This document shows, piece after piece, positions 6,688 to 27,416 of a stretch of 64,000 nt of DNA. This stretch comes from Bacteroidia bacterium (lineage in GTDB: Bacteria; Bacteroidota; Bacteroidia; M30B66). The notes under the pieces were generated by a model that was not told where the DNA came from, did no database searches, and worked only from the letters and a program-made list of their open reading frames with translations. The stretch covers positions 2,091 through 66,090 of the forward strand of contig JBKCHQ010000106.1 of NCBI GenBank assembly GCA_046302715.1, given 5' to 3'. Each line of letters begins with the position of its first letter. Position 1 is the first letter of the stretch. The position numbers and the translations under genes were made by a program.

Positions 6688-7931
6688 GTTCCGTAAATCT
6701 TGCCCTGTAACTGCATGCCCGGGTAAGGCGAATTCGAAGATTTTGAGAATATCATTTCCTCCGTAAACGTAAATTGCTCCGCTGGCGTATATATAAAGAA
6801 ATTGGCCGGAGCTCCATCTTCAATTCTCGGGATCTCTTTACCGACAATTTTTCGGGGATTAATCGAAAGGGCGCGGATTAAAACATCGATATCTGAATCA
6901 CTATTTAAGGCTTTACGTGCAGCCGCATAAAGACATTCAATGCCTTCGATCCCAAATCGGGCATACGCAAATTCAACATCTTTATGCTCAATTGGCTCAG
7001 GCCGGTGATCAGAACACAATACGTCAATGGTCCCGTCGCGCAAGCCTTGAATAAGTGCAATTCGATCATTTTCGCTCCTTAAAGGAGGCCACACTTTATA
7101 ATTACTATCGAACTTTTCAAGACATCCATCATTAAAAAGCAGATGATGCGGGTAGGTGCTGCAATACACCTTAATGTGTGCAGACTTAGCTTCTCTAATA
7201 ATATCCACCGATTTGGCACAACTTATTCCTGCAATAAATATGGGAACATCGTGATATTGAGCTAAAGTAATAGCCCGCTGAATACCGAGTATTTCGCTTA
7301 TTTCAGGCGCACTTTTTAATCCCAATCGCGTGCTGCTTTCGCCTTCATTCACTAAGGCCCCCTGAGTTATTGCGGCATCATCGGGGTGCAACATCACTAT
7401 ACCTCCTGATAATTTGGTGTACTGGAGCGCCAAATGCAGAAGAAGCGTGTTGGACAAAGCGCTTTTATCGTCGGTAAATACTGCGACCCCTTCCTGTTTC
7501 AAGGCCACCATTTCGGTTAGATCTTTTCCCTTCATACCAACCGAAAGTGCACCCGCTGCGACAAATTCAACAGGTAAATCGGCAGTGGATTGATGGATAA
7601 ATGCTGCAGCCCCACGATGATCCGTTACCGGAAGTAAGTCTGGCATCAGGTTTAATGAAGTTACTCCACCACGCATGGCTGCATTAGATAAACTTTCAAA
7701 GGTTTCGCGTTCTTCAAACCCAGGCTCTCCACCTGTAACTTGAAAATCGTAAAGACCGGGTGAAGCCAAAAGTCCACTGCAATCGAAAACCTCAATTTCG
7801 AATGAATTATCTGTTTGTGCGTTTATATGGATTATTCCGTCTCTTACTAAAATGGAGCACAGTTGATGGTGTAAATTACTTTCAGGATGTGCAATGCGTA
7901 CGTTTTTGAATAGAACCGCGTGCTTCTTCAT
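6654..7931 (-). CDS. dihydroorotase-like amidohydrolase lacking metal-binding residues (PyrC'-like pseudoenzyme)
   Basis: The amidohydrolase fold aligns to class I dihydroorotase. The HxH motif before ..PG is replaced (DFQVTGGEPG versus canonical DxHVHxRxPG) and DHAPH is replaced by DHRPEP. The start is placed at MKKHAV, where the ATG overlaps the upstream stop as ATGA. Confidence 0.65.
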   Translation of the reverse strand: MKKHAVLFKNVRIAHPESNLHHQLCSILVRDGIIHINAQTDNSFEIEVFDCSGLLASPGLYDFQVTGGEPGFEERETFESLSNAAMRGGVTSLNLMPDLLPVTDHRGAAAFIHQSTADLPVEFVAAGALSVGMKGKDLTEMVALKQEGVAVFTDDKSALSNTLLLHLALQYTKLSGGIVMLHPDDAAITQGALVNEGESSTRLGLKSAPEISEILGIQRAITLAQYHDVPIFIAGISCAKSVDIIREAKSAHIKVYCSTYPHHLLFNDGCLEKFDSNYKVWPPLRSENDRIALIQGLRDGTIDVLCSDHRPEPIEHKDVEFAYARFGIEGIECLYAAARKALNSDSDIDVLIRALSINPRKIVGKEIPRIEDGAPANFFIYTPAEQFTFTEEMIFSKSSNSPYPGMQLQGKIYGTCTSKGWFFDA

Positions 7932-9970
7932 GATTTCATAAAGCGTATGAGTAATATTTCGAGAAGGAAAAACAATAATGCAGCAATGATGAAGTATTTC
8001 CAAATGGGCTTTCCTTCATCAAGTTGTGCGATACTGTTTCCCAATTCTTTTTGATTGCCGTCGAGAATTTCCAGAGAGGTGAAACCAGCTGCATTGAAGC
8101 GTTTTAGCAAATTCTCCTTATTTTCGAACTTCATTTCCGACTCTTCGCGCGGGTAATTGAACGATGCCCATCCCTTAATGCTATCGCCTATCATGATCTT
8201 GTAATTGCCTGCTTTAGGCAATTCATTGTTAACATATAGTTTAACAATACCGTTTTGCATTTCCTGTTCAGGTATAATTTCGAATGTGCCGTCTTCCGAT
8301 TTGAGCTTCAGAGTTTTGTCGCCACCTGCTACCACACCCGACAACATTATTGCTTCATTTCTGCCAAGGGTATAATACAATTTCGAGGAGGGGAAAGAGT
8401 ACAAGCCAATTTTATATAGCGTAGGTACAAAAAGCGCATGTTGTTGAAAATTACCGCCTACGTCATTGAGCTCAGTGCAGAACAAATACACCTTCCCTTT
8501 GCCCGAATCAAAGCTAGAAGCAAACAAGTCGCCATTGGGTAAACGCATGATTTCTTCGGAGCTGTTTTTTGAACCGCTGGTAATGCTGAAATATTTTTTT
8601 ACACTGGGCAAATCAATATTTTGAGGTACGCGTTCAAAAACATCATCATAAATTGGATGCCTGAAATTTAAATTCCCAACTCGTTGCGACAGCTCCTTTA
8701 AAGCACCATAACCGCCTGCATTGAGCGTTTGGCATAGCGATGTGTAACCGCTTACATTAGCCTGTAAGCTGGGGAAAACCGCAAGACTGCCGCCCTCACC
8801 GATGAACTTACTGATTTCTTGAACCATTCCGCTCGAAATCTCTTTTAAGCCACTCAATACGATTAAATTGTATTCAGGAAACTTCGAATAATCCAGCTGA
8901 AGCGAGGTAACGCTCGTTAAATTAAATGCAGGATTTTTCCCATAAATCTTTTCAAGGTAATTGCCCCCACCCTCATCTTGTACCACTAATACATTAAGTT
9001 TTTCAGGCACGTTGTAGCTGAAATAGAAACGATCGTCGAAAATGATGGGGTGGTCGTTAATGGATAAACTGCCAAATTGATAGCCCGATTCGGGATTGGA
9101 AAAATTCATTTCGGCAATTTTTGAAGAATCAGCTCCAGCACTAAACGAACTTATACCTTTTTGAAGTTGATTAATGGTAACCGATGCCGCAATATTTTCA
9201 GCCCGTTGTTTAGAGTGATTGGTCACTGAGAATAATAATCTATCGGATGTTGATTTTTGGCGATATGGGGTTTCAAACCATAGGGAATCTATAGAAACAT
9301 TGCCTTCGGCTTTGTTTTGTAAATGAATGAGGTTAAGTTGAACGGTAGTGTCGGCTTTTGCTTGTTCAATATCAGCGGCTCCACTTTGGAAGTCGCTTAT
9401 TAAAAAGGAAATGGGGTTTTTGATTTTATTGTAATCAAACAGTTCGTTTTGACGGGCAATAATCTCTGAAGTTTTGCGGTAGCTGGCACTTAAATCCACT
9501 TCACGAAGCATTTCGAGAAATTGGTCCTTCGAAAGCAGTCGCTGATGCTTTCCTTCAAAGTCGTTGGTTATTAATTGAAAGCGATCTGTTTCTTTGTAAG
9601 AAGATGCGATGGAAGCGGCGTGTTTTTTTGCCATTTCGAGTAATGTGGCCGTTTCGCTTTTGCCGTTCATAGAGAACGAGTTATCAATATATATACTAAT
9701 GGCCCTACTTCCGGTTTTTGCTTTATGCACCGAGGGTATGAAAGGGCGGGCAAAGGCTATTACCAAGGCAGCTAAAGCCAGACACCGCGCAATTAAAATG
9801 AGGATGTGCTTGAGTTTTGAGCGACTTTGTGTTTCTTTTTGGAGCGATATTAAGAAACGTACATTGGTAAAATAAACCGTTTTAAACTTCCTGAAGTGAA
9901 AGAGGTGTATAATTATGGGGATAGCCAAGCTAAACAATGCCCATAAAAAAGCCGGATTCGTAAACTTCAT
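7928..9970 (-). CDS. BatA-like N-terminal double-transmembrane-domain protein with large extracytoplasmic region
   Basis: The N-terminus MKFTNPAFLWALFSLAIPIIIHLFHFRKF plus a second helix matches the BatA-type two-helix anchor. 680 aa, with a C-terminal transmembrane helix. Confidence 0.55.
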   Translation of the reverse strand: MKFTNPAFLWALFSLAIPIIIHLFHFRKFKTVYFTNVRFLISLQKETQSRSKLKHILILIARCLALAALVIAFARPFIPSVHKAKTGSRAISIYIDNSFSMNGKSETATLLEMAKKHAASIASSYKETDRFQLITNDFEGKHQRLLSKDQFLEMLREVDLSASYRKTSEIIARQNELFDYNKIKNPISFLISDFQSGAADIEQAKADTTVQLNLIHLQNKAEGNVSIDSLWFETPYRQKSTSDRLLFSVTNHSKQRAENIAASVTINQLQKGISSFSAGADSSKIAEMNFSNPESGYQFGSLSINDHPIIFDDRFYFSYNVPEKLNVLVVQDEGGGNYLEKIYGKNPAFNLTSVTSLQLDYSKFPEYNLIVLSGLKEISSGMVQEISKFIGEGGSLAVFPSLQANVSGYTSLCQTLNAGGYGALKELSQRVGNLNFRHPIYDDVFERVPQNIDLPSVKKYFSITSGSKNSSEEIMRLPNGDLFASSFDSGKGKVYLFCTELNDVGGNFQQHALFVPTLYKIGLYSFPSSKLYYTLGRNEAIMLSGVVAGGDKTLKLKSEDGTFEIIPEQEMQNGIVKLYVNNELPKAGNYKIMIGDSIKGWASFNYPREESEMKFENKENLLKRFNAAGFTSLEILDGNQKELGNSIAQLDEGKPIWKYFIIAALLFFLLEILLIRFMKS

Positions 9971-10906: not shown

Positions 10907-11626
10907 TTAGTGCTTTATCGTAATTTTTCCAGTACGAAGAGCTTTGGAGCCTTGCTGCAATCTATATATGTATACCCCTGATGGTAGGTTAACCAACGAT
11001 ATTTGGTGATTCGTGTTTTGTGCAATGAGTGTTTCGCTCAAAACCTTAGTGCCCAACATATTAAATATTTCTAGCTCAGTATTTTTCTTTAATCCATTGC
11101 ACGTTATGTTTAAGATATCGCTCACTGGGTTGGGATAGGTTTTTACCGACCATTCGGTAGCTTTGACATTTGGGGAACTTAATGGAGCAATATCGAATTT
11201 TACTACCAAGACAGAAGAATCAGCTTCGTTTTGTGCATTATAGAAAGTGTAATGGATTTCTGCAGTGCCGGCCATTGAATCGGGACGCAAATGAACAGAA
11301 AATACGTTGGTGGTATTTCCGCCCTCAATATCAAGTGGAGTAGGGGATTGACTAACACTGGGAAGATAGCAGGCAGTCCAGCAAAAAAAGTTTGTTGATC
11401 CTTGGATGTTCTGAACAATACGCCTCCTTACATGGAACGAACCATATTCGTTAGATGAATTAGTAACAGGAATTTGACGTTCAATTTCGTACTCCTCGGC
11501 TCCAGCAGTGATCACAACCGGACTGCTAGCTCCAAAGGTAATGGATTGCGAATTAATTGATTTTGAAAACGATACCAGAACTAATGTTAAACTTAAACAA
11601 ATTGCTGCAAGTCTTGAAGTGCCCAT
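10907..11626 (-). CDS. small secreted protein with T9SS C-terminal sorting domain
   Basis: N-terminal signal peptide. The C-terminal ~80 aa (YPNPVSDILNITCNG...LPSGVYIYRLQ...KITIKH) is a typical Por-secretion sorting domain. Confidence 0.6.
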   Translation of the reverse strand: MGTSRLAAICLSLTLVLVSFSKSINSQSITFGASSPVVITAGAEEYEIERQIPVTNSSNEYGSFHVRRRIVQNIQGSTNFFCWTACYLPSVSQSPTPLDIEGGNTTNVFSVHLRPDSMAGTAEIHYTFYNAQNEADSSVLVVKFDIAPLSSPNVKATEWSVKTYPNPVSDILNITCNGLKKNTELEIFNMLGTKVLSETLIAQNTNHQISLVNLPSGVYIYRLQQGSKALRTGKITIKH

Positions 11627-11778
11627 AATTCTTGATTTATTTTAATTTCAAATTTACGGCTTTTACCCAAGCCTGCATCACTGATCAATAATTTTTGCCT
11701 TTTTTTTTATGGAGCAGGTTGTTTTATTAAGAAATTCTTAATTTTGAAAATTCTCAACAAGTCAAATTCAACAATCAC

Positions 11779-13251
11779 ATGAAAAAATTTTTACAAAATG
11801 TAAGTCTTGCAATGGGCTTATTAGTAGCAGGGAGTGCAAATGCGCAGTTGGCTAACGGAGCGTTGATGCCTGCGGGATTGGTATTAACCGACATTAACGG
11901 AAATACACATGATTTAGATGCCTTGCTTAGCCAAGGTAAAGCATTGTTTATTGATGTGTCTGCAACATGGTGTGGGCCATGCTGGGGCTTCCACCAAACA
12001 GGAATTTTAGAGGAGCTTTATGCTACTTATGGTCCCGAAGGAACCGATGAGGTTCGTGTATTCTTTATCGAGGGTGATGGTCAAACAACAATTGATCAAC
12101 TTAACGGAATTGGGTCGGGAACACAAGGAAATTGGGTGGCTGGTACACCATATCCTATTGTAGATGATGCAGCAGCTGGCGACGCGTTAAGCGTTGGATT
12201 TTTCCCAACATTATACATGATCTGTCCAAGCCGCCGTGTATGGCACATTTCACCATCGGAAGTTTTGGCATATTGGCCTTCTTCTTTGCACATTGCCAAT
12301 GCACGTGCTTGTAATAACCCTATTGATGCGGTTATGAATGGTTATACCGGCGAAACTTCAACATGTGGTTCACTTTCTCCCTTGAAAGTGCAAATTCAAA
12401 ATAAAGGTGTAGAAGCATTAACCAGCGCAACTATTACTGCTTCTTTAGGAGGTACACAAGTGGCCACTACAAATTGGACTGGTACACTGCAGCAATTCCA
12501 GGCTACCGAAGTATCATTTGGTTCTGCTGATATTACTTCATCTTCTGATCTAGTATTTACGGTTACTCCTACGGGAACGGATGTTGCTCCAAACGACAAT
12601 ACGTTTACTCAAGCAATTGATATGGCCCCTACCATCTCAACGACAGATGTAATCGTTAAAATCACTACTGATCGTTACGGTTCTGAAACTACTTGGAGAA
12701 TTCGTCGTCCAAATAATTCTATTCTTGCATCAGGCGGACCTTACGATGACATGGCTGCAAACGGAGTTACTGTTCAACCAGAAGAAACAGTAACATTGCC
12801 TGCTAACGGATGTTATAAATTCGAAATTTTAGATTCGTATAGTGATGGTATTTGCTGCGCTTACGGCGAAGGGTCATACGAAGTAACCGATGCCAATGGA
12901 GTTTCTCTTGTTAGTGGTGGAGAGTTCGGTGCGACTGAAAAAAGAGCACTAATCGGTGAAGGCGCTTCTTCAATCGATGACAACCAATCTGTAGTTTCTG
13001 ATTTTACTGTGTATCCTAACCCATCAAATGGTTTAGTGAATATTTCGATGAACTTAACTTCAAATGACGATGTTACTTTGAAAGTTTACAATTCTATCGG
13101 AGCGTTGGTTCATGAAAACGATTTGGGTCGTTTAACGGTTGGTTCTTATTTCTACCCACTTAATTTATCAGGCTATGCAGCTGGAATGTACCGTGTTGTT
13201 GCGGTTTCATCAAAAGGTGTTAGCGTAAATTCAGTACAAATAAGCCGTTAA
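11779..13251 (+). CDS. T9SS-sorted protein with N-terminal thioredoxin-like domain (WCGPC active site)
   Basis: Signal peptide, then the thioredoxin-fold motif FIDVSATWCGPCWGFHQ. The C-terminus (VYPNPSNGLVNISMNL...GMYRVVAVSSKG) is a T9SS sorting domain. Confidence 0.7.
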   Translation: MKKFLQNVSLAMGLLVAGSANAQLANGALMPAGLVLTDINGNTHDLDALLSQGKALFIDVSATWCGPCWGFHQTGILEELYATYGPEGTDEVRVFFIEGDGQTTIDQLNGIGSGTQGNWVAGTPYPIVDDAAAGDALSVGFFPTLYMICPSRRVWHISPSEVLAYWPSSLHIANARACNNPIDAVMNGYTGETSTCGSLSPLKVQIQNKGVEALTSATITASLGGTQVATTNWTGTLQQFQATEVSFGSADITSSSDLVFTVTPTGTDVAPNDNTFTQAIDMAPTISTTDVIVKITTDRYGSETTWRIRRPNNSILASGGPYDDMAANGVTVQPEETVTLPANGCYKFEILDSYSDGICCAYGEGSYEVTDANGVSLVSGGEFGATEKRALIGEGASSIDDNQSVVSDFTVYPNPSNGLVNISMNLTSNDDVTLKVYNSIGALVHENDLGRLTVGSYFYPLNLSGYAAGMYRVVAVSSKGVSVNSVQISR

Positions 13252-13278
13252 TTTTAACGGAATAAAATTTGATAAGCA

Positions 13279-13319
13279 CCGGGAAATACATGGTTATTTC
13301 CCGGTTTTTTATTTTTTTT
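13279..13319 (+). terminator. rho-independent terminator after the thioredoxin-like T9SS cargo gene
   Basis: Perfect hairpin CCGGGAAATA-CATGGT-TATTTCCCGG followed by TTTTTTATTTTTTTT. Confidence 0.65.
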
Positions 13320-13324
13320 GAATT

Positions 13325-13840
13325 ATGAAAAAATTCGTTCTATTTCTTTTTTTGGCGCCTTCCTTAGTTTTTGCTCAGTCCTCTGAAAATGCAAGGGCTT
13401 TTCCTGAAGTATCGATTAAGACGCTTGATGGTAAATCAATTTCAACCAAAGATTTTGATAACGGGGGAAAACCAATTGTGGTATCATTTTGGGCCACCTG
13501 GTGTAAACCTTGCGTGAATGAATTAACCAATATAGCCGAGTTATATGAGCAGTGGCAGAAACAAACCGGTGTGAAAGTAATTGCCATTTCCATCGATGAT
13601 GCACGCAATACTGCTAAAGTTGCTCCTTTCGTAAACGGCAAAGGTTGGGATTATGAGGTTTACACCGATCCCAATTCGGATTTGAAGCGCGCATTAAACA
13701 TCAATCTTGTGCCTCATACATTTTTGCTCGATGGTCAAAAAAACATAGTTTGGCAGCACAATAGCTACACCGAAGGCGATGAAATTAAGCTTTTTGAACT
13801 TGTAAAAAAAGTGGCAGAAGGAAAACCAATTGCTGAATGA
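13325..13840 (+). CDS. TlpA/ResA-like periplasmic thiol:disulfide oxidoreductase
   Basis: Signal peptide plus the redoxin motif SFWATWCKPC. 171 aa. Confidence 0.8.
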   Translation: MKKFVLFLFLAPSLVFAQSSENARAFPEVSIKTLDGKSISTKDFDNGGKPIVVSFWATWCKPCVNELTNIAELYEQWQKQTGVKVIAISIDDARNTAKVAPFVNGKGWDYEVYTDPNSDLKRALNINLVPHTFLLDGQKNIVWQHNSYTEGDEIKLFELVKKVAEGKPIAE

Positions 13841-15495
13841 TTTTTAAGAAATATTTATGGAGTCGGTATCTGATAGTATCGGCTATTCTTCTTATTGACC
13901 ATCAATTAATTGCTCAAAATCCCACTCCCGCCGCCGATTGGGGCGAGCTGCATGGTAATTTTCAGCTTGATGCGCAATACTACAATCAAGATTCACTTAT
14001 CGGAGCTCCAGTTGTTCCTGAAAAAATCCTTTCCAATGGTTTTATGAACCTTTGGTATACACGGGGTAAATTTTCGGCGGGCCTTCGATACGAACATTAT
14101 TTAAATGTAATGCAAGGCTTTGACCCCCGTTACAAAGGTTCGGGTGTGCCATTTCGTTTTGCAAGCTATACCAATGATGAACTCGAGGCTACTGTGGGTA
14201 ATTTTTATGAGCAGTTTGGTAGTGGGCTCATCTTGCGCGCTTACGAAGAACGTGGACTTGGTTTCGATAATGCACTCGAAGGGGCTAAAGTAAAATACCA
14301 GCCCATCAAAGGTCTTATTGTAAAAGGGGTAATTGCCCGACAAAGAGCCTTTTTCTCCTTGAGTCCGGGTATTTTAAGAGGTGGCGATATAGAGTTTAAC
14401 CTTAACGAAAGTTTGCCGGTAGAAAAGCAGCTGACTACAAATATTATTATAGGGGGCTCGGCTCTTAGCCGCTATCAAGACGATCAGGATCCAATTTACA
14501 TTTTGCCTGAAAATGTGGCGGCCTTTGCAGGTCGTTTTAATGTTAATAGAGGTAAGTTAAATCTTTTTGCAGAATACGGATATAAAATAAATGATCCTTC
14601 AGCGAGTAATAATAGAATTTATAGACCGGGTCAGGCATTAATGGTTACTGCCTCATACTCCACTAAGGGTTTGGGCATTATCGCAACAGCAAAACGACTG
14701 GATAATTTTGATTTTCGATCCGATCGTGCCGCAAGCGGAATCGGATATAACATCAATTTTTTGCCGGCTACAACCCGCCAACACACCTACAATTTACCGG
14801 CAACTATTTATCCTTACGCTACGCAGCCAAACGGTGAAATGGGCTACCAGGTGGAAGTAGCTTGGCGCATTAAAAAAGGAACTTTCTGGGGCGGAAAATA
14901 CGGCACCGAAATAACCCTCAACGCTTCGGGTACCAATGGTTTAGATAAAACACCGGCGAGCAATGATACCTTAGGCTATGAATCGGGATTTTTTAAAATT
15001 GGCAAAGAAGTTTTTTTTAGAGACTACCACCTAGAAATTCATAAGAAAATCAATAAAACTTGGAAAGCTAATTTAATGCTGCTTTACTGGGTTTACAATA
15101 AAGATGTGGTGCAAGGCTTAACCGGTTTTGGTACCATTTACGCACCCATGGGTGTATTTGATTTAACCTGTCGCATCAATGATAAGCATACGGTACGCAT
15201 GGAGGCTCAGGCGCTATTTACAGAACAGGATGCCGGTTCTTGGGCTATGGGCCTATTGGAATACACATACTCGCCCAATTGGTTTGTTGCGGTGGTGGAT
15301 CAATACAATTTCGGTAATCCGGATGAAAGGTTGCAAATTCATTACCTCACCGGTAATGTTGGATTTATGAAAAAAGGAAACCGTATAATGTTGGGCTATG
15401 GTCGTCAAAGGGCCGGTATTTTTTGCGTTGGAGGCGTTTGCAGAAATGTTCCAGCTTCAAATGGACTCACGCTTTCAATTTTAAGCAGCTTTTAG
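13837..15495 (+). CDS. putative outer-membrane beta-barrel protein (porin-like)
   Basis: Start overlaps the tlpA-like stop (ATGA). N-terminal signal sequence, alternating beta-strand-like pattern and a C-terminal ...LSILSSF ending in Phe. Confidence 0.5.
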   Translation: MIFKKYLWSRYLIVSAILLIDHQLIAQNPTPAADWGELHGNFQLDAQYYNQDSLIGAPVVPEKILSNGFMNLWYTRGKFSAGLRYEHYLNVMQGFDPRYKGSGVPFRFASYTNDELEATVGNFYEQFGSGLILRAYEERGLGFDNALEGAKVKYQPIKGLIVKGVIARQRAFFSLSPGILRGGDIEFNLNESLPVEKQLTTNIIIGGSALSRYQDDQDPIYILPENVAAFAGRFNVNRGKLNLFAEYGYKINDPSASNNRIYRPGQALMVTASYSTKGLGIIATAKRLDNFDFRSDRAASGIGYNINFLPATTRQHTYNLPATIYPYATQPNGEMGYQVEVAWRIKKGTFWGGKYGTEITLNASGTNGLDKTPASNDTLGYESGFFKIGKEVFFRDYHLEIHKKINKTWKANLMLLYWVYNKDVVQGLTGFGTIYAPMGVFDLTCRINDKHTVRMEAQALFTEQDAGSWAMGLLEYTYSPNWFVAVVDQYNFGNPDERLQIHYLTGNVGFMKKGNRIMLGYGRQRAGIFCVGGVCRNVPASNGLTLSILSSF

Positions 15496-15522
15496 TATTT
15501 TTAAAGTGAAATTTGAAAGGGT

Positions 15523-16371
15523 ATGAAAGGTCGAATTATTCTTGTGTTGATTGCTTTAAGCTATCTAACAATTTCTTGCGATAAAATTGAAGGTCCGTAT
15601 TCTGAAAATGCCGGAAACGGTAATCCTGATACATCTTCGGGATATTTTAGAAAGATTTTGGTGGAGGATTTTACAGGTCACACTTGCGGCAATTGTCCAC
15701 GTGCTGCCGAAACACTTAAGCAGCTTCACGATTTATACGGTGAAAAGGTGGTGTCATTTGCGGTTCACGTAGGTTTTTTCGCCGAGCCCCAACCTTCAGG
15801 CTACTACACCGCCGATTATCGAACCTTGGTAGGAAATGAAATTGACCAATATTTTGGAAATTCAACAGCAGGCCTTCCCAATGGTCTGGTTAATCGTATT
15901 TCATTTGAATCGAATCCTATAGTGCAACATACCGATTGGGCCTCAAAAGTGTCGGGCATGGTTTCAACAGCAGCGGATGCCTGGATTGAATTAACTCCCG
16001 AGTTTAATGCTATAACACGAGAACTTACGGCGTCATCAACCACACGAATTTTAAATGAATTATCAGACTCGCTTCACATTACCTATTATCTAACAGAGGA
16101 CAGTATTTTAAGTGCACAAAAAGATTATTCTCTTTCACCAAGTACCATTCAGAATTACTATCACCGCCACGTGTTACGCGGGAGTATGAACGGGACCTGG
16201 GGTACGGCTTTAAGTGTAGGACAGCAATTTTCCGCAGGTCAACAGATTGCTCATTCGGCAAGCTACACATTGCCCCCAAGTTGGAATGCACAAAAAGTGC
16301 ATGTTGTTGCTGTTTTATCTAAAGCTGGCACCAAAGAGGTAATTCAGGCTGAAGAAGCGCACATTGAATAG
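15523..16371 (+). CDS. lipoprotein with thioredoxin-like CxxC motif
   Basis: Lipobox LTISC, followed by ILVEDFTGHTCGNCPRA, which resembles a thioredoxin-fold active site. Confidence 0.5.
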   Translation: MKGRIILVLIALSYLTISCDKIEGPYSENAGNGNPDTSSGYFRKILVEDFTGHTCGNCPRAAETLKQLHDLYGEKVVSFAVHVGFFAEPQPSGYYTADYRTLVGNEIDQYFGNSTAGLPNGLVNRISFESNPIVQHTDWASKVSGMVSTAADAWIELTPEFNAITRELTASSTTRILNELSDSLHITYYLTEDSILSAQKDYSLSPSTIQNYYHRHVLRGSMNGTWGTALSVGQQFSAGQQIAHSASYTLPPSWNAQKVHVVAVLSKAGTKEVIQAEEAHIE

Positions 16372-16374
16372 AGA

Positions 16375-16986
16375 ATGAGGCATTTTGTTTTATTCTTCCT
16401 GTTTGCCTGCATTATTCAAGGGGCATTTAGTCAAAAGTTTAATTCGGGTCTGCAGCTGGGATTAAATACTAGTCAGATAACCGGCGATAATCTAGCGGGT
16501 TACAATAAGGCTGGAATAACCGCAGGCATTTGGGTGAATCGCAATATTTCCGAACGATTATCAATATGGATGGAACTATCCTATTTGCCAAAAGGAAGTA
16601 AAAAACTAAACAGCCCATCTGATTCGATTCCTGATTATTACCGTCTGCATATCAATTATATAGAGGTGCCAATAAGTATTACTTATCGTTTACATCCCAA
16701 ACTGAGTTTCGAAACGGGAATTTCATGTGGAGCATACATAAGCCATACCGAGGAAGACGTAAATGGTGATTTAACCGGAATATACGGCCCAAGTGAACAA
16801 TTTAAGTCCACCGACATTTCATTTAATGCAGGCTTAAACTGGCACTTTAATTCAAAATGGATGTTTAATGTTCGTAATGCAAATAGCATTTTTCCGGTTC
16901 GTAATCACAATCAGCAAACCTATTTTAGGCTGAATCGGGGGCAGTACACCTCCTGCATAATGGGACGCATTTTATACCAGTTTTAG
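16375..16986 (+). CDS. small outer-membrane beta-barrel protein (porin family)
   Basis: Signal peptide, 203 aa, and a C-terminal aromatic residue (..ILYQF). Starts 4 nt after the preceding gene. Confidence 0.5.
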   Translation: MRHFVLFFLFACIIQGAFSQKFNSGLQLGLNTSQITGDNLAGYNKAGITAGIWVNRNISERLSIWMELSYLPKGSKKLNSPSDSIPDYYRLHINYIEVPISITYRLHPKLSFETGISCGAYISHTEEDVNGDLTGIYGPSEQFKSTDISFNAGLNWHFNSKWMFNVRNANSIFPVRNHNQQTYFRLNRGQYTSCIMGRILYQF

Positions 16987-16987
16987 C

Positions 16988-17554
16988 ATGGGAAGAAAAA
17001 TAGTAGTGGCGGTTTCGGGGGCTTCAGGTTCTATTTATGCCGATTTACTTTTACGGCGTTTAGCAAGTATCGATAATCAATTCGAAAAACTGGATATGGT
17101 TTTTTCAAAGAGTGCTTTTGATGTTTGGAAACACGAATTGGGGAAGGATAGTTACAATGAACATTCCTATAAAATATGGGAGAATGATAATTTTTTTGCA
17201 CCCTTTGCCTCTGGTTCAGCGGGGTACGACACCCTAATAATTTGCCCCTGCTCGATGGGTATGCTTGGGCGAATTGCATCGGGTATATCAGACGATTTGA
17301 TTACCCGTTCGGCTGATGTTATGCTAAAAGAACGCCGCAAACTCATACTTTGCCTGCGTGAAACCCCATATAATTTAGTCCAAATCCGTAATATGGAAAC
17401 CTTAACTCTTGCAGGTGGGATTATTTGCCCTGCAACGCCCTCATTTTATTCGCAACCCAGAAGTATTGAGGAGGTAGCGTTAACAGTTGTAGATCGTTTA
17501 ATTGATTTGGCAGGATTTAAAATATCCAGTAGCAGGTGGCAAAGTAGCGACTAG
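16988..17554 (+). CDS. ubiX: flavin prenyltransferase UbiX
   Basis: The N-terminus KIVVAVSGASGSIYADLLLRRL and the 188-aa length match UbiX/Pad1 flavoproteins. Confidence 0.8.
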   Translation: MGRKIVVAVSGASGSIYADLLLRRLASIDNQFEKLDMVFSKSAFDVWKHELGKDSYNEHSYKIWENDNFFAPFASGSAGYDTLIICPCSMGMLGRIASGISDDLITRSADVMLKERRKLILCLRETPYNLVQIRNMETLTLAGGIICPATPSFYSQPRSIEEVALTVVDRLIDLAGFKISSSRWQSSD

Positions 17555-22561: not shown

Positions 22562-24412
22562 TTAATGATGGCCTTCTGCCATTTCTTTTTCAGTTAAAGG
22601 CACTGTTTGGGGCACAAAGTCTTCTTCGCGCTCGGGGCGGCTATAATCGTAAGCCCAACGATGCACTTCAGGAATTTCTCCAGGCCAGTTACCGTGAATA
22701 TGCTCCACAGGTGCTGTCCACTCGAGTGTATTCGATTTCCAAGGATTTTGTGTAGCTTTTTGTCCTTTGAAAATACTAAAGAAGAAATTAAAAAGGAATA
22801 TTACTTGTGCACAGCCAGCAAGAATGGCAAACCAGGTAACCATAACATTAATATCCACCAAATCATTGAATAATGGGAACTCAGTATTTGAATAATAACG
22901 GCGAGGTACGCCTGCCATACCTAAAAAGTGCATAGGGAAGAATACACCATAAGCCCCGGCAAAAGTGAGCCAGAAATGCGCATATCCCATTTTTTTATTC
23001 ATAACACGTCCGAATAGTCTCGGAAACCAATGATACACACCCGCAAACATTCCAAATATTGCAGCTGAACCCATCACAAGGTGGAAGTGTGCTACAACAA
23101 AATAGGTGTCATGCAGATTGATATCTAGTGCAGAGTCTCCCAATATTAAACCGGTTACACCACCCGAAATAAAGAACGATACCAATCCAATGGCAAAAAG
23201 CATCGCTGGTGTAAATTGTATGTTACCTTTCCACAATGTGGTGATGTAATTAAAAGCCTTAACTGCAGAAGGGATGGCAATTAAAAGTGTGGTAAATACG
23301 AAAACCGATCCTAAGAATGGATTCATACCCGTAATAAACATGTGGTGCCCCCATACGATAAAGGAGAGGAATGCAATACCTAAAATTGAGGCAATCATAG
23401 CACGGTATCCGAAAATTGGCTTACGAGCGTTTGTTGCGATAACCTCAGAGGTGATTCCTAACGCAGGAAGCAAAACAATGTATACTTCAGGATGGCCAAG
23501 GAACCAAAATAAGTGCTCATATAAAATTGGACTTCCACCATCGTATTCCAGCGCTTTGCCAGCAATATAAATATCGCTTAAATAAAAACTGGTTCCAAAA
23601 CTGCGATCAAAAATTAGTAGCAGTGCAGCAGCGAATAATACTGGGAACGACAGCACCCCAAGAATAGCAGTTACTAGAAATGCCCAAATGGTAAGAGGTA
23701 ATCGGGTCATCGACATCCCTTTAGTACGGAGATTGATAACGGTAACTATGTAGTTAAGTGAGCCTAATAAAGAAGACACAATAAATAACGACATCGAAAC
23801 TAACCATAATGTCATTCCTAAGCCAGAACCTGGCATAGCATCAGGCAATGCACTCAATGGCGGATACACTGTCCAACCTCCTGAGGCCGGGCCACCTTCA
23901 ATTCCTAATGAAAATAACATTACTACACTTGATGCAAAAAAGAACCAAAATGAAAGCATGTTCAAAAATCCAGAAGCCATATCACGTGCTCCAATTTGTA
24001 AGGGGATTAGAAGGTTCGAGAATGTTCCCGATAATCCACCTGTTAATACGAAGAATACCATTATAGTACCGTGTATAGTTACAAGCGCCAAATAAAAATT
24101 AGGATCAAGTACACCACCCGGAGCCCATTTACCTAAGATTGGCTCAAGAATGGGGAAGCTTTTTCCAGGCCATGCGAGTTGTAAACGAAATACTAACGAC
24201 ATGAGCATGGCAAGTACGCCCATAAATACTGCAGTTATAAGAAACTGCTTAGAAATCATTTTGTGATCTTGAGAAAATACATACTTGGTCAGGAAGGTAT
24301 CGTGATGCTCTTCATCATGATCGTGTTCGTGACTGTGTGCATGCTCATGACCGTGCACTAATTCTTCTGCTGCCTGTTCAGCGTGTAAGTTGTTTGTTTC
24401 CATTGCTGACAT
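22562..24412 (-). CDS. ctaD: cytochrome c oxidase subunit I (caa3-type) with His-rich N-terminal extension
   Basis: Twelve-helix core with the conserved YVFSQDHK start, heme and CuB His ligands (HGTIMVFF, WGHHMF). The N-terminus contains HGHEHAHSHEHDHDEEHHD. Confidence 0.9.
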   Translation of the reverse strand: MSAMETNNLHAEQAAEELVHGHEHAHSHEHDHDEEHHDTFLTKYVFSQDHKMISKQFLITAVFMGVLAMLMSLVFRLQLAWPGKSFPILEPILGKWAPGGVLDPNFYLALVTIHGTIMVFFVLTGGLSGTFSNLLIPLQIGARDMASGFLNMLSFWFFFASSVVMLFSLGIEGGPASGGWTVYPPLSALPDAMPGSGLGMTLWLVSMSLFIVSSLLGSLNYIVTVINLRTKGMSMTRLPLTIWAFLVTAILGVLSFPVLFAAALLLIFDRSFGTSFYLSDIYIAGKALEYDGGSPILYEHLFWFLGHPEVYIVLLPALGITSEVIATNARKPIFGYRAMIASILGIAFLSFIVWGHHMFITGMNPFLGSVFVFTTLLIAIPSAVKAFNYITTLWKGNIQFTPAMLFAIGLVSFFISGGVTGLILGDSALDINLHDTYFVVAHFHLVMGSAAIFGMFAGVYHWFPRLFGRVMNKKMGYAHFWLTFAGAYGVFFPMHFLGMAGVPRRYYSNTEFPLFNDLVDINVMVTWFAILAGCAQVIFLFNFFFSIFKGQKATQNPWKSNTLEWTAPVEHIHGNWPGEIPEVHRWAYDYSRPEREEDFVPQTVPLTEKEMAEGHH

Positions 24413-24444
24413 ATCTACCTCGTTTTTATTATTTAGTGTAACAA

Positions 24445-25470
24445 TTACTTAAGCTCTGTGTTCTGATTTAAGCTACTATTTTCCGCAGTCTGTTTCGCTT
24501 CAGATTTTTTTTGAGCCCAGGTTTTCTGCTCTGAAAGCCATTTGTTATATTCTTCCTTCGTTTCAACTATGATATCCATCTGCATATTGAAGTGTGATGC
24601 TCCGCAGATTTTATTGCAAAGCAACACATAATTGAATTTAGGATTCTTCAATTTGCTGCGCATTTCAGCAGTGGTAATTGTTGGAGTAAATTCAAACATG
24701 GTTTCCATGCCAGGCACACAGTTCATTTGAGCCCTGAAATGCGGCATGTACGCACTATGTATAACATCACGAGATCGAAATTTGAATTGCACAGGTTGTC
24801 CTTTAACCAAGTGTAATTCTCCTTTTACAATAACGTCGTCGTTAGACTTTACATCATCTATCAGACCTAAATCGTTTCCTTCACCAATAGTTCTAAAATC
24901 ATAAGCACCAAGTTTATTGTCATTACCCGCATAGCGGGCAGTCCAATCAAATTGCTTGGAATATAACTCCACCACCATTGCATTTTTATCGCCTGGATAA
25001 ATTACATCGTTCCATACGGTTAATCCGTAAGCAATAAGGCCGGTAAGTACAATAGCAGGTATAACCGTCCAGATTAATTCGAGTTTGTTGCTATGTGCAA
25101 AGTGTACCGCACGATTTCCCTTTTTACCTGCGTACTTGTAGGTTTGGTAAATCATGATGATATGAGTCCCAACAAAAACAATGGTAATAAGTGCTAATGT
25201 GACATTAAAAAGTTTGTCAATTTCAGGGCCATGTGCAGAGGCTGCCTCAGGTAAAATTTTGTCTTTGTACGCAAATAACTGCCAAATACAAAACACAAAA
25301 AATGCAGTAAGGAAATACACCCACATATTACCTTGGTTGCGATTGTCGGAGTCGGTAATGGTTTCATCGCTCCTTTTATCTCTAAGTTCGGCCGATAGCG
25401 CAGCAATACTCATTACACGCACAACGGTAAGAACAAACAAAACAATTACGGCTAAAATCAAGTAAGTCAT
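24445..25470 (-). CDS. coxB: cytochrome c oxidase subunit II
   Basis: Two N-terminal transmembrane helices and the CuA motif CNKICGASHFNM. Confidence 0.85.
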   Translation of the reverse strand: MTYLILAVIVLFVLTVVRVMSIAALSAELRDKRSDETITDSDNRNQGNMWVYFLTAFFVFCIWQLFAYKDKILPEAASAHGPEIDKLFNVTLALITIVFVGTHIIMIYQTYKYAGKKGNRAVHFAHSNKLELIWTVIPAIVLTGLIAYGLTVWNDVIYPGDKNAMVVELYSKQFDWTARYAGNDNKLGAYDFRTIGEGNDLGLIDDVKSNDDVIVKGELHLVKGQPVQFKFRSRDVIHSAYMPHFRAQMNCVPGMETMFEFTPTITTAEMRSKLKNPKFNYVLLCNKICGASHFNMQMDIIVETKEEYNKWLSEQKTWAQKKSEAKQTAENSSLNQNTELK

Positions 25471-25502
25471 ATAAAAGGTCGGCTCGTTAAAATCTTAAAA
25501 AG

Positions 25503-26684: not shown

Positions 26685-26714
26685 TGTATTTGAATTGAAT
26701 TGTCCTTGTTTAAA

Positions 26715-27407
26715 TTATTTATCTTTCTTTGTTTTAGCTGGTTTCTCTTTCGTTGCAGCCAATGAATCTGATTTTACTGCCGAGGAATCTGTTGAAGCGC
26801 TTAAGCTTGTTCCGAGTCCTTCGGCTCTCAATTTTTTCACATATTGAATAACTGCCCAGCGCTCTCCAAAATTAATTTGCGATGCATGACTGCCCATCAT
26901 ATTTTTCCCATAATAGATGGTATGATACATTTTACCTTCCGGCAAATCTTTAAGTGCGGCACTGTAGTATGATGGCACGCCAGCAAATTTATCTCGTTGA
27001 ACAAGAGTACCGTTACCATCCCCTTTTTCGCCATGGCAGTGTATGCAAAAATTTGAATATACTGTCTTGCCTTTTTCAAGGATGGCTTCGGTGGCTTGAT
27101 ATTGCGAAGGAGCTTTTACATTTTGACCGGCAGCTTCGTAGCCTTCATTAGTGTTGGGATAAAGATATTGCTCGTGGTAAGGCAATGTTTCTTCATTGAA
27201 GCGCGGAACGGTTCCTGCTACAGGTTTCATCGAACTACCTTCCTTGCTAAAAGGACTTTCACCATAAGCTTCATAGGCCGTTCCTCTGTACATATCGGGC
27301 ATGTACTCAAGTCCCGGACTCAGCGGATTTGATGTGCACGATTCCATCACGGCCGCCAACATTATAAGTCCGGCAGCACTTAAAATCAGATATTGGGATG
27401 TTCTCAT
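26715..27407 (-). CDS. actE: alternative complex III subunit ActE (monoheme cytochrome c lipoprotein)
   Basis: Lipobox (AAVMESC) and a single CIHCHG heme-binding motif. Confidence 0.7.
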   Translation of the reverse strand: MRTSQYLILSAAGLIMLAAVMESCTSNPLSPGLEYMPDMYRGTAYEAYGESPFSKEGSSMKPVAGTVPRFNEETLPYHEQYLYPNTNEGYEAAGQNVKAPSQYQATEAILEKGKTVYSNFCIHCHGEKGDGNGTLVQRDKFAGVPSYYSAALKDLPEGKMYHTIYYGKNMMGSHASQINFGERWAVIQYVKKLRAEGLGTSLSASTDSSAVKSDSLAATKEKPAKTKKDK

Positions 27408-27416
27408 CAGATGCGA

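What the first reader, a model, noticed from the sequence alone, without database searches (positions are those of the whole stretch)
10907..16986. Cluster of thioredoxin-fold proteins aimed at the periplasm, the outer membrane and the T9SS: a possible cell-surface thiol-redox relay
Six consecutive genes share an envelope-targeting and thiol-redox theme. A small T9SS cargo protein (10907..11626) is divergently paired with a T9SS cargo carrying a classical thioredoxin WCGPC active site (11779..13251), which ends at a strong terminator. Next come a periplasmic TlpA-like reductase (WCKPC, 13325..13840) whose stop overlaps the start of a 552-aa predicted outer-membrane barrel as ATGA, a lipoprotein with a thioredoxin-like CGNC site (15523..16371), and a small beta-barrel starting 4 nt later (16375..16986). 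A periplasmic reductase, outer-membrane barrels, a lipid-anchored CxxC protein and a surface-exported thioredoxin together look like a pathway. It could carry reducing equivalents from the periplasm to the cell surface or extracellular milieu, or do oxidative folding and repair of T9SS cargo. A T9SS-exported classical thioredoxin with no obvious extracellular reductant is itself odd. I know of no described system with this architecture, so the model is my inference.
Basis: inference. Interest (0 to 1): 0.55.

Follow-up and report, generated by a model that had tools for sequence, protein, structure and literature searches.

The report
Conserved Bacteroidota envelope cysteine-pair gene module
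The six genes are real, and five of them form a gene module conserved across the phylum Bacteroidota (a periplasmic TlpA reductase, a large DUF6029 outer-membrane barrel, an Omp28 lipoprotein, a surface-anchored thioredoxin and a PorA-like protein), each with an invariant cysteine pair; in Porphyromonas gingivalis the same module is one operon ending in porA, which suggests an undescribed thiol-exchange route from periplasm to cell surface linked to type IX secretion.

Summary

- **Identities:** the 552-aa barrel is DUF6029 (PF19494), modelled as a roughly 24-strand, plug-less barrel. The "CGNC lipoprotein" is an Omp28-family protein with the HBP35 fold (thioredoxin-like domain plus beta-sandwich). 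The small T9SS cargo is a PorA-family protein.
- **Conservation:** in 80 loci across Bacteroidota, TlpA lies directly upstream of DUF6029 in 73 of 74 and Omp28 directly downstream in 69 of 71. PorA-like and large T9SS CxxC proteins each occur in about 70% of loci with enough flank.
- **Cysteine pairs:** five proteins each keep an invariant pair, including C-x-GG-x-C in the barrel (126 of 128 family representatives) and C-x3-C in PorA-like proteins (42 of 42). The small barrel has no conserved cysteine and is not core.
- **P. gingivalis:** the order is tlpA-DUF6029-omp28-porA, tightly spaced on one strand.

A T9SS-exported thioredoxin is not new, because HBP35 is one. I found no paper in the searchable library that describes the module.

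The best-supported mechanism is a thiol-disulfide exchange chain from periplasm to cell surface. This is inferred, not shown. Rivals are a dedicated export route for Omp28 and PorA, and ligand capture.

The parts
10907..11626 (-). PorA-family T9SS cargo: signal peptide, Ig-like N-domain with invariant Cys82-x3-Cys86 (codons 11381-11383 and 11369-11371), and a type-A T9SS CTD
   Evidence: PF18962/TIGR04183 CTD. The N-domain profile hits only PDB 6KJK, the PorA N-domain (E 1e-4), with the motifs aligned. hhalign against PorA gives probability 95.6%. BLASTP against P. gingivalis PorA gives 27% over 186 aa, E 4e-9. The Cys pair is present in 42 of 42. Found within 4 genes of DUF6029 in 38 of 54 loci.
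11627..11778 (.). Divergent promoter region with one Bacteroidota-type -7 box (TAnnTTTG) for each gene: 11739-11746 (+) and 11649-11656 (-)
   Evidence: Motif scan and sequence. These are consensus matches only, and the consensus itself is from established knowledge.
11779..13251 (+). T9SS-anchored thioredoxin-fold protein: ResA/TlpA-class domain with WCGPC (Cys65/Cys68, codons 11971-11973 and 11980-11982), Ig-like middle domains, and a type-A CTD
   Evidence: CTD PF18962 E 2e-9. The N-domain matches 2LJA and ResA structures. No Omp28 sandwich is present. The same genomic slot is filled by Omp28/HBP35-class T9SS proteins in most loci and by ResA-class ones in L001, L015, L034 and L046. The CxxC is conserved in 48-49 of 51.
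13278..13305 (+). Terminator-like hairpin (11-bp stem plus T-run), ending 19 nt before the TlpA start codon; possibly a partial terminator or attenuator within a longer transcript
   Evidence: No -7 box occurs in the 73-nt spacer.
13325..13840 (+). Periplasmic TlpA/ResA-like thiol-disulfide oxidoreductase with WCKPC (Cys60/Cys63, codons 13502-13504 and 13511-13513); its stop overlaps the next start
   Evidence: AhpC-TSA E 3e-22 and Redoxin E 2e-19, plus ResA, StoA and TlpA NCBIfam hits. Directly upstream of DUF6029 in 73 of 74 loci. The Cys pair and the cis-Pro130 are each present in 74 of 74. 48.6% identical to the P. gingivalis operon member.
13837..15495 (+). DUF6029 outer-membrane barrel of about 24 strands with no plug domain; invariant Cys530-V-G-G-V-Cys535 hairpin (codons 15424-15426 and 15439-15441) just before the C-terminal strand
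15523..16371 (+). Omp28-family lipoprotein with the HBP35 fold: lipid Cys19, conserved C-D-K-I-E-G-P-Y tether, thioredoxin-like domain with Cys55-G-N-Cys58 (codons 15685-15687 and 15694-15696), and a C-terminal beta-sandwich
   Evidence: PF11551 E 6e-24, and NF033782 at 146 bits against a cut-off of 150. AF2 pLDDT 91. Foldseek top hits are 5Y1A HBP35 E 4e-12, 2AXO and 2R2C. Directly downstream of DUF6029 in 69 of 71 loci. N-terminal motif.
16375..16986 (+). Small OMP_b-brl_2 beta-barrel; probably co-transcribed, but not a core member (no conserved cysteine)
   Evidence: PF13568 E 3e-13. Present in 30 of 80 loci, nearly always with UbiX. No Cys column.
16988..17554 (+). UbiX flavin prenyltransferase, 1 nt after the small barrel; a syntenic passenger with no evident link to the thiol module
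   Evidence: TIGR00421 at 165 bits against a cut-off of 109. Present in 28 of 80 loci.

Best explanation
This is the window's copy of a gene module conserved across Bacteroidota. Its core is a dedicated periplasmic TlpA-type reductase, a plug-less DUF6029 outer-membrane barrel of about 24 strands, and an Omp28-family (HBP35-fold) lipoprotein. Two T9SS-CTD proteins usually accompany the core: a surface-anchored thioredoxin-fold protein and a PorA-family protein.

Shown: the gene order is conserved. Each of the five proteins keeps an invariant cysteine pair. The three thioredoxin-fold members have complete active-site geometry, with CxxC at the helix N-terminus plus the cis-proline. In P. gingivalis, tlpA-DUF6029-omp28-porA lie tightly spaced on one strand, with the omp28 stop overlapping the porA start.

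Inferred: the module works as a thiol-disulfide exchange chain. TlpA is presumably reduced by an inner-membrane CcdA/DsbD-type protein that was not identified here. It supplies reducing equivalents at the periplasmic face. The barrel and its partner lipoprotein form a complex in which the lipoprotein's thioredoxin domain and the barrel's Cys hairpin lie on the outer side or in the lumen. The T9SS-anchored thioredoxin and the C-x3-C of the PorA-like protein are the surface end-points, as acceptors or substrates.
For: Synteny: TlpA is directly upstream of DUF6029 in 73 of 74 loci and Omp28 directly downstream in 69 of 71, across loci 49-94% identical drawn from Flavobacteriales, Hymenobacter, Sphingobacteriales, Bacteroidales and Saprospiraceae. 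Median gaps are 17.5 and 12 nt. Unbiased clustering finds no other family conserved beyond close relatives. The same order occurs in P. gingivalis, followed by porA.

Cysteine pairs: TlpA 74 of 74, large T9SS protein 48-49 of 51, PorA-like 42 of 42, Omp28 in all, DUF6029 80 of 80 and 126 of 128 across 50%-identity cluster representatives; in about half of the barrels these are the only cysteines.

Fold: in the lipoprotein model (pLDDT 91) C55 and C58 sit between beta1 and the N-terminus of helix 58-75, and the invariant P119 precedes a strand, which is canonical thioredoxin geometry. The best structural match is HBP35. HBP35's CxxC has thioredoxin activity in vitro that is lost on Cys mutation (PMC2907840).

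The T9SS slot is filled by either of two unrelated thioredoxin-fold classes, and both keep CxxC and the CTD. So the selected feature is a surface CxxC domain, not the Omp28 sandwich.

NCBIfam holds an Omp28-related selenoprotein model (NF045500). From general knowledge, selenocysteine is typical of redox-active sites.

The barrel is large enough in principle to hold a domain, since its top structural hits are the 24-strand ushers. TlpA is translationally coupled to it.
Against: No electron transfer, protein complex or surface exposure was tested. No multimer model or model coordinates were available, so the extracellular position of the barrel's Cys hairpin rests on topology reasoning from the DSSP string. 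A Cys pair flanking a GG beta-turn could simply be a structural staple. No known mechanism moves reducing equivalents across an outer membrane through cysteines. No CcdA/DsbD gene was found next to the module. PorA's cysteines are dispensable for its only known function (PMC12152298). HBP35 also binds hemin, and a Paraprevotella Omp28-related T9SS protein acts by binding trypsin, with no redox role reported (PMC2907840, PMC9477747). The 80 loci are the best matches to one query, so the more divergent part of the family was sampled only for the barrel's Cys motif and for P. gingivalis.
Confidence: 0.42

Rival explanations
1. Dedicated export and assembly route. DUF6029 is the outer-membrane conduit or docking barrel that carries its partner lipoprotein Omp28, and possibly PorA, to the cell surface. 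TlpA keeps their cysteines reduced during periplasmic transit. Disulfide formation or exchange at the barrel hairpin on the outside then traps them there, a folding trap comparable to the mitochondrial Mia40 pathway.
For: [quoted passage not shown] The barrel has about 24 strands and no plug. Its top structural matches are ushers, which pass folded Ig-like pilins, and the PorA N-domain resembles the FimH lectin domain (PMC7712824). The lipoprotein has a strongly conserved tether motif, C-D-K-I-E-x-P-Y, followed by a disordered linker. In five Bacteroidales loci the triad follows bamA-skp-skp.
Against: Similarity to ushers may reflect only strand number; no usher plug, periplasmic domains or chaperone are present. 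PorA-like and the large thioredoxin protein carry T9SS CTDs and are ordinary T9SS cargo by sequence. This reading does not explain why a CxxC thioredoxin fold of either class is kept at the T9SS slot. About 30% of loci with enough flank have no PorA-like gene nearby.
Confidence: 0.22
2. Ligand capture and uptake system. The Omp28/HBP35-fold proteins bind an extracellular ligand such as hemin, a thiophilic metal like copper, or a host protein. The DUF6029 barrel is the channel, and TlpA prepares or receives the ligand in the periplasm, as TlpA does for the copper sites of ScoI and CoxB. On this reading the cysteine pairs bind ligand and do not relay electrons.
For: HBP35 binds hemin, and its mutant grows poorly under hemin limitation (PMC2907840). 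A Paraprevotella Omp28-related T9SS protein recruits trypsin to the surface (PMC9477747). Invariant H82, H214 and H216 in the lipoprotein could ligate a metal or heme. CxxxC motifs bind copper in Sco and CuA proteins (established knowledge). A 2026 preprint proposes an iron-related role for similar Muribaculaceae proteins (PMC13404670). An alternative complex III and cytochrome oxidase operon lies 5 kb away in this window.
Against: There is no TonB box, plug, ABC transporter or inner-membrane permease in the conserved set. No riboswitch or other known regulatory RNA is present. Replacing the HBP35-class domain by a ResA-class thioredoxin without the sandwich, as in this window, argues against a binding site in the sandwich. 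The module is present in P. gingivalis, an anaerobe that from my own knowledge lacks haem-copper oxidases, so CuA maturation cannot be the general role.
Confidence: 0.15
3. The genes are functionally unrelated neighbours, or the barrel is a polysaccharide-export porin, as suggested for DUF6029 from its similarity to Wzi.
Against: Gene order and cysteine positions are conserved across orders, while all flanking genes vary. No OPX, Wzx/Wzy or other polysaccharide genes are in the conserved set. The model has about 24 strands and matches ushers better than 18-strand Wzi.
Confidence: 0.03

Closest known systems
HBP35 of Porphyromonas gingivalis (PG0616; PDB 5Y1A)
   Same: HBP35 is a T9SS type-A CTD cargo with a CxxC thioredoxin-like domain plus a beta-sandwich. 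It is the best full-length structural match of the window's lipoprotein and the top PDB hit of the large T9SS family at this genomic slot. Its thioredoxin activity has been shown in vitro (PMC2907840).
   Different: The window's HBP35-fold protein is lipid-anchored, not T9SS-anchored. The window's T9SS protein has a ResA/TlpA-class domain and no Omp28 sandwich. By its locus number, hbp35 in P. gingivalis lies outside the module.
PorA of P. gingivalis (PG2172/PGN_0123; PDB 6KJK)
   Same: The architecture and size match (239 vs 246 aa): signal peptide, Ig-like N-domain with the aligned motif 'FC(W/F)..C..P.vS.SP', and a type-A CTD. Both are encoded in the TlpA-DUF6029-Omp28 neighbourhood.
   Different: Sequence identity is only about 27%. 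Here the gene is divergently transcribed upstream of the module instead of being the last gene of the operon. Binding to PorY and regulation of the T9SS are known only for P. gingivalis and depend on the CTD, not on the conserved cysteines (PMC12152298).
Omp28 of P. gingivalis (PG2173; PDB 2R2C) and the Omp28-related 00502 of Paraprevotella clara
   Same: Same Pfam family (PF11551). The P. gingivalis protein has the same lipobox followed by Asp, the same CxxC position and the same position after DUF6029.
   Different: No function is established for Omp28. 00502 is a T9SS-anchored multi-Ig protein that recruits trypsin (PMC9477747). Whether 00502 keeps the CxxC was not checked.
CcdA/DsbD to TlpA/ResA/CcmG periplasmic reductive pathways
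   Same: The window encodes a signal-peptide-bearing ResA/TlpA-class thioredoxin with W-C-x-P-C and a cis-Pro, tightly coupled to its presumed client genes.
   Different: Known clients are periplasmic: apocytochrome c, ScoI, CoxB and spore cortex proteins. Here the co-conserved partners are an outer-membrane barrel, an outer-membrane lipoprotein and T9SS surface proteins.
LptD-LptE plug-and-barrel complex and the FimD/PapC ushers
   Different: There is no sequence relationship. There is no LptD N-terminal domain, no usher plug or periplasmic domains, and no chaperone. A DUF6029-Omp28 complex is hypothetical.
MtrCAB porin-cytochrome conduits
   Same: They are the only established way of moving reducing power across a bacterial outer membrane: a barrel sheathing redox proteins, with a surface lipoprotein as the terminal reductase (established knowledge).
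   Different: They use haems, not cysteine pairs, and there is no homology. This is an analogy for the proposed logic only.

Membership tests
DUF6029 (PF19494) | Full-length match to the Pfam model above the gathering score | tested here: met
   610.7 bits against a cut-off of 27, covering residues 17-552.
DUF6029 (PF19494) | C-terminal C-x-G-G-x-C-R-x-x-P motif (a family feature found here, not part of any published definition) | tested here: met
   CVGGVCRNVP at 530-539. Present in 80 of 80 loci and 126 of 128 representatives.
Omp28 family outer-membrane lipoprotein (PF11551 / NF033782) | Pfam Omp28 domain above the gathering score | tested here: met
   85.2 bits against 34.9. The 2R2C sequence hit has E 8e-8.
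Omp28 family outer-membrane lipoprotein (PF11551 / NF033782) | NCBIfam NF033782 whole-protein cut-off | tested here: not met
   146.1 bits against a cut-off of 150, a narrow miss. Relatives at about 54% identity are named Omp28 family lipoprotein by NCBI.
Omp28 family outer-membrane lipoprotein (PF11551 / NF033782) | Lipoprotein signal peptide with lipobox cysteine | tested here: met
   LTISC19, with invariant C19-D20.
HBP35-type surface thioredoxin (for 11779-13251) | HBP35/Omp28-class thioredoxin-like domain followed by the Omp28 beta-sandwich | tested here: not met
   The N-domain is ResA/TlpA-class. The middle region has no similarity to the Omp28 profile (hhalign probability 0.2%). It works like HBP35, as a T9SS-anchored CxxC domain, but is not a member.
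HBP35-type surface thioredoxin (for 11779-13251) | T9SS type-A C-terminal domain | tested here: met
   PF18962 at 38 bits against 27, and TIGR04183 at 25.5 against 23.
HBP35-type surface thioredoxin (for 11779-13251) | Thioredoxin (disulfide reductase) activity and hemin binding | not testable with these tools
   These need biochemical assays, as in PMC2907840.
PorA family (for 10907-11626) | Homology of the N-terminal Ig-like domain to PorA-N (6KJK) | tested here: met
   The family profile hits only 6KJK outside the CTDs, at E 1e-4. hhalign probability is 95.6%. Pairwise BLASTP gives E 4e-9. Support is modest but consistent.
PorA family (for 10907-11626) | C-x3-C pair equivalent to PorA Cys92/Cys96 | tested here: met
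   C82 and C86 align to the PorA 'CFGQC' motif. The PorA cysteines at 92 and 96 were verified on L082.
PorA family (for 10907-11626) | CTD binds PorY and activates PorXY-SigP; surface localisation independent of the T9SS | not testable with these tools
   Known only from P. gingivalis genetics (PMC7712824, PMC12152298).
TlpA/ResA-type periplasmic thiol-disulfide oxidoreductase | Thioredoxin fold of the AhpC-TSA/Redoxin class with CxxC and a cis-Pro, plus an export signal | tested here: met
   PF00578 at 79.5 bits and PF08534 at 70.3 bits. WCKPC is present and P130 is invariant. The signal peptide ends in AQ.
TlpA/ResA-type periplasmic thiol-disulfide oxidoreductase | Equivalog-level identity with ResA, StoA, TlpA or DsbE | tested here: not met
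   All NCBIfam scores are far below the cut-offs, for example ResA at 81 against 170. It is a distinct, highly conserved subfamily.
Wzi-like polysaccharide-export barrel | 18-strand barrel with a helical plug, encoded near OPX or capsule genes | tested here: not met
Chaperone-usher pathway usher | Plug domain, N- and C-terminal periplasmic domains, and an adjacent chaperone and pilin genes | tested here: not met
   Only the barrel is similar. There are no extra domains and no chaperone or pilin genes.

The most novel reading that the evidence does not exclude
The DUF6029 barrel with its partner Omp28 lipoprotein is a thiol-dependent outer-membrane gate, which could serve two roles. (a) It could be the missing T9SS-independent route by which PorA reaches the cell surface. 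[quoted passage not shown] This would be the first cysteine-based redox or translocation device spanning a bacterial outer membrane.
Probability: 0.15. Interest if true: 0.9.

Novelty: new variant of a known kind. Interest (0 to 1): 0.7.

Why it matters
Every component belongs to a family that is either uncharacterised (DUF6029), has no assigned function despite a crystal structure (Omp28), or is only half understood. PorA falls in the last group: its CTD signals to PorY, but its conserved N-domain and cysteines have no known role, and its T9SS-independent route to the surface is unexplained.

Finding that these genes form one conserved module, and one tightly spaced gene string in the genetically tractable P. 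gingivalis, turns several separate puzzles into a single testable hypothesis. That hypothesis can be tested with mutants and antibodies that already exist.

If reducing power or thiol state does cross the outer membrane here, it would extend the DsbD/TlpA paradigm beyond the periplasm. It would also bear on how Bacteroidota, including gut and oral species, keep surface proteins such as cysteine proteases and adhesins active in oxidising surroundings.

Tried and rejected
- **Selenocysteine or frameshift as the reason for the few loci lacking TlpA or Omp28.** tblastn shows these are genuine absences (L058, L038, L072).
- **The window's T9SS thioredoxin as an HBP35 orthologue.** Rejected, because it has no Omp28 sandwich and a different thioredoxin class.
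- **The small beta-barrel as a redox component.** Rejected, because it has no conserved cysteine and a patchy distribution tied to UbiX.
- **Riboswitch or other known RNA upstream as a clue to a ligand.** None was found in the whole window.
- **TlpA serving the nearby cytochrome oxidase and ACIII genes.** Unlikely as a general role, because the same TlpA-DUF6029 pairing exists in P. gingivalis.
- **Searches that led nowhere.** The supplement of the Phylogenize2 preprint holds no relevant terms. The Alvarez 2006 tlpB paper is not held, so orthology of F. psychrophilum tlpB (a gliding-defective mutant) to this TlpA is untested. The afdb50 fold library was unavailable. Model coordinates are not exposed, so no Cys-Cys distances could be measured. 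The homologue search with a 61-aa PorA fragment returned only one short protein, but that hit led to the P. gingivalis contigs.

Full report
**1. Observation**

- The TlpA-like gene's stop overlaps the next gene's start (13837-13840).
- The Omp28-like gene follows after 27 nt, and the small barrel after a further 3 nt.
- A hairpin at 13278-13305 (11-bp stem plus T-run) is the best terminator-like site in the region.
- Both outer genes carry type-A T9SS C-terminal domains.
- All six proteins begin with signal peptides, and the 282-aa protein has a lipobox.

Within this window alone, five neighbouring genes with a C-x2-4-C motif is only mildly unusual, since 15 of 54 long ORFs have one. The weight of the evidence therefore rests on comparison with other genomes.

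**2. What the parts are**

*The "CGNC lipoprotein".* It is an Omp28-family protein: PF11551 at 85 bits, and NF033782 at 146 bits against a cut-off of 150. Its model (pLDDT 91) has three parts: a disordered tether after the lipid cysteine, a thioredoxin-like domain, and a beta-sandwich. C55 and C58 lie between strand 45-51 and the N-terminus of helix 58-75. The best full-length structural match is HBP35 of P. gingivalis (5Y1A, E 4e-12), followed by a DUF1223 thioredoxin-like protein (2AXO) and the Omp28 domain (2R2C).

*The 171-aa protein.* It is a ResA/TlpA-class oxidoreductase, but it falls far below every NCBIfam equivalog cut-off.

*The 490-aa T9SS protein.* Its WCGPC domain is also ResA/TlpA-class (best PDB hits 2LJA and ResA). 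Ig-like domains and the CTD follow it. It has no Omp28 sandwich.

*The 203-aa protein.* It is a generic OMP_b-brl_2 barrel.

**3. Conservation**

One scan of species-representative genomes with the DUF6029 protein returned 80 loci, at 49-94% identity. By their record titles they come from Flavobacteriales, Hymenobacter, Sphingobacteriales, Bacteroidales, Saprospiraceae and other Bacteroidota. The closest is a freshwater Flavobacteriales MAG.
- A TlpA-like gene lies immediately upstream of DUF6029 in 73 of 74 loci with room for it. An Omp28-like gene lies immediately downstream in 69 of 71. The median gaps are 17.5 and 12 nt.
- The three exceptions are genuine absences, not selenocysteine or frameshift artefacts.
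- Clustering all neighbouring ORFs without prior labels gave the same picture. It also showed that the large T9SS protein upstream is a paralogue of the lipoprotein (hhalign probability 99.9%, E 2e-33). The top PDB hit of that family is again HBP35 (E 1e-14).
- Of 54 loci with enough flank, 38 have the small T9SS protein within four genes, 37 have a large T9SS CxxC protein, and 29 have all five.
- The small barrel and UbiX occur together in about 30 loci.
- All other neighbours are variable housekeeping genes: Sir2, malic enzyme, Der, TrmO, and bamA-skp-skp in one clade.

**4. Cysteines**

| Protein | Motif | Conservation |
|---|---|---|
| TlpA | C60/C63 | 74 of 74 (cis-Pro130 also 74 of 74) |
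| Large T9SS protein | CxxC | 48-49 of 51 |
| Lipoprotein | CxxC | every copy recognised (CGNC the commonest) |
| Lipoprotein | P119 before a strand | invariant |
| DUF6029 barrel | C-x-G-G-x-C, 17 residues from the C-terminus | 80 of 80 |
| Small T9SS protein | C82-x3-C86 | 42 of 42 |
| Small barrel | none | no conserved cysteine |

In 42 of the 80 loci it holds the barrel's only two cysteines. A full-library profile search found 1691 clusters at 50% identity with E up to 0.001. Of 128 full-length representatives among the best 150, 122 have C-x-GG-x-C and four more keep C-x4-C.

In the model the two barrel cysteines flank the GG turn of a small hairpin (527-531 and 534-538) that leads into the last strand. 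The C-terminus of a BAM-assembled barrel is periplasmic, so this hairpin should lie on the outer side or in the lumen. That placement is an inference from topology. No coordinates were available to check it.

**5. Two thioredoxin classes in one slot**

Most large T9SS proteins at this position have the Omp28/HBP35-class motif "...EEFT..xCxxC" and a PF11551 domain. The window's protein, and those of L001, L015, L034 and L046, instead carry a ResA/AhpC-TSA-class domain ("F[IL]D..ATWCxPC") and no Omp28 domain. Two unrelated thioredoxin-fold classes alternate at one slot, and both keep the CxxC and the T9SS anchor. This suggests that selection acts on a surface-anchored CxxC domain. It is the strongest argument here for a thiol-redox role over a ligand-binding role for the sandwich.

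**6. The PorA link**

A profile of the small T9SS family hits T9SS CTD structures and, through its N-domain, only 6KJK, the N-terminal domain of P. gingivalis PorA (E 3e-5 for the whole profile and 1e-4 for the N-domain alone). The signature motifs align: "vkNsS" with "VINQS", and "yFCw.anCygPsvsvsP" with "ALCF-GQCMLPNVSVSP".

The literature shows that PorA (PG2172) lies next to Omp28 (PG2173) (PMC9722745). To see the locus itself:
- I recovered a PorA fragment and its contig, which reads [DUF6029 C-terminus]-Omp28-PorA.
- An exact-match metagenome scan then gave a 19-kb contig.
- That contig encodes, on one strand after nqrDEF: a 160-aa TlpA-like protein (NCKPC; 48.6% identical to the window's), a 581-aa DUF6029 protein (36% identical, CSGGVC), a 291-aa Omp28 (KCLYC) and a 246-aa PorA. 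The gaps are 55 and 19 nt, and the Omp28 stop overlaps the PorA start as TAATG.
- The PorA ORF has cysteines at 92, 96, 137 and 181. These are exactly the residues named by Ito et al. 2025 (PMC12152298).

The module therefore extends to Porphyromonas, where two of its members have been studied.

Three published facts bear on interpretation:
- PorA's CTD alone activates PorY, and the four cysteines are dispensable for that (PMC12152298).
- PorA reaches the surface in T9SS translocon mutants by an unknown route, and its N-domain resembles the FimH lectin domain (PMC7712824).
- The authors complemented porA from a foreign promoter and do not discuss an operon.

The searchable library has no paper holding the tags PGN_0121, PGN_0122, PGN_0124 or PGN_0125. 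DUF6029 appears only in the OPX paper, and nothing found connects Omp28, TlpA and PorA.

**7. What was already known**

A T9SS-exported thioredoxin is not new. HBP35 is a T9SS cargo whose CxxC gives insulin-reductase activity, and it also binds hemin (PMC2907840). A 2026 preprint notes HBP35-like T9SS thioredoxins and lipoprotein thioredoxins in Muribaculaceae and suggests roles in oxidative protection or iron, but it does not describe this module. An Omp28-related T9SS protein of Paraprevotella recruits trypsin to the cell surface.

**8. Mechanism**

*Shown:* a conserved, tightly linked gene set whose five products are all exported and all keep a cysteine pair. Three of them have canonical thioredoxin active-site geometry.

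*Inferred (confidence about 0.4):* a thiol-disulfide exchange chain. It would run from TlpA in the periplasm, through a barrel-lipoprotein complex, to the surface thioredoxin-fold protein and the PorA-like protein.

*Main rival (about 0.2):* the barrel is a dedicated conduit or platform for Omp28 and PorA, with thiol chemistry acting as a transit and trapping device.

*Third reading (about 0.15):* capture of hemin, a metal or a protein. In both alternatives the cysteine pairs still matter.

The idea of unrelated neighbours or a polysaccharide porin is strongly disfavoured.

*Weaknesses:* nothing was tested biochemically. The barrel's Cys pair could be a structural staple. No inner-membrane electron donor was identified. 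The sampling is centred on relatives of one query.

**9. Transcription**

The divergent spacer (11627-11778) holds one Bacteroidota-type -7 box for each gene. The 73-nt spacer that contains the hairpin before TlpA holds none. In most other genomes the large T9SS gene abuts TlpA. The hairpin may therefore act as a partial terminator inside a longer transcript and not as a strict operon boundary. This is inference from motifs only.

**10. Verdict**

The components are members of known families. Their assembly into a conserved module containing an outer-membrane barrel with a redox-type cysteine pair has not been described in the literature I could search. I rate it a new variant of a known kind (periplasmic TlpA-type reductive pathways, extended to the outer membrane and cell surface), with interest of about 0.7.

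Noticed in passing
window 16375-17554; L032 2055-3237; L034 3003-4173: A small OMP_b-brl_2 barrel and the cytoplasmic flavin prenyltransferase UbiX form a conserved, almost gap-free gene pair (1-nt gap here). The pair stays next to the module even where it is inverted and moved upstream (L032, L034). An outer-membrane barrel coupled to UbiX has no obvious rationale.
   Followed up: partly
L052 2523-6342 (also L055, L061, L067, L073): In five Bacteroidales-type loci the TlpA-DUF6029-Omp28 triad lies directly downstream of bamA (Omp85/POTRA) and two skp/ompH genes on the same strand. This may hint at a link to outer-membrane protein biogenesis, or it may be clade-specific synteny.
   Followed up: partly
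window 14749-14850 (DUF6029 residues about 305-338): The most conserved stretch of the barrel ('LPATTRQHTYNLPATIYPYATQPNGEMGY', many positions at least 90% conserved) lies in the long loop that has the lowest model confidence (pLDDT below 50 at 303-312 and 326-331). It may be a partner-binding or lumen-plugging element that a monomer model cannot place.
   Followed up: no
window 13252-13324: The terminator-like hairpin ends only 19 nt before the TlpA start codon, and the 73-nt spacer has no TAnnTTTG -7 box. The downstream genes may depend on read-through, which would make the hairpin an attenuator.
   Followed up: partly
window 15577-15600 and the Omp28 orthologues in L001-L080: The mature lipoprotein N-terminus is strongly conserved as C-D-[KVE]-[IVL]-[ED]-x-P-[YF]. 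That is more specific than a generic Bacteroidota lipoprotein export signal, and P. gingivalis Omp28 keeps C-D-I-I-D. It could be a sorting signal or a barrel-docking peptide.
   Followed up: partly
window 22562-33867 (- strand): This is an operon for alternative complex III (multihaem ActA, molybdopterin/Fe-S ActB, NrfD-like ActC, ActD, cytochrome c) followed by cytochrome c oxidase subunits II and I. The organism is therefore an aerobe, and cytochrome and CuA maturation clients for a TlpA-type reductase are encoded 5-9 kb from the module.
   Followed up: partly
window 7928-9970 (- strand): A 680-aa protein with a BatA (aerotolerance regulator) N-terminal domain lies upstream of the module. 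It is syntenic with the module in the closest relatives (cluster 14, 8 loci). A link to oxygen tolerance was not examined.
   Followed up: no
L011 1215-6232 and 9638-12940; L016 190-6123: Some genomes carry two or three tandem large T9SS Omp28/HBP35-class CxxC paralogues around the module, which suggests expansion of the surface end of the system.
   Followed up: no
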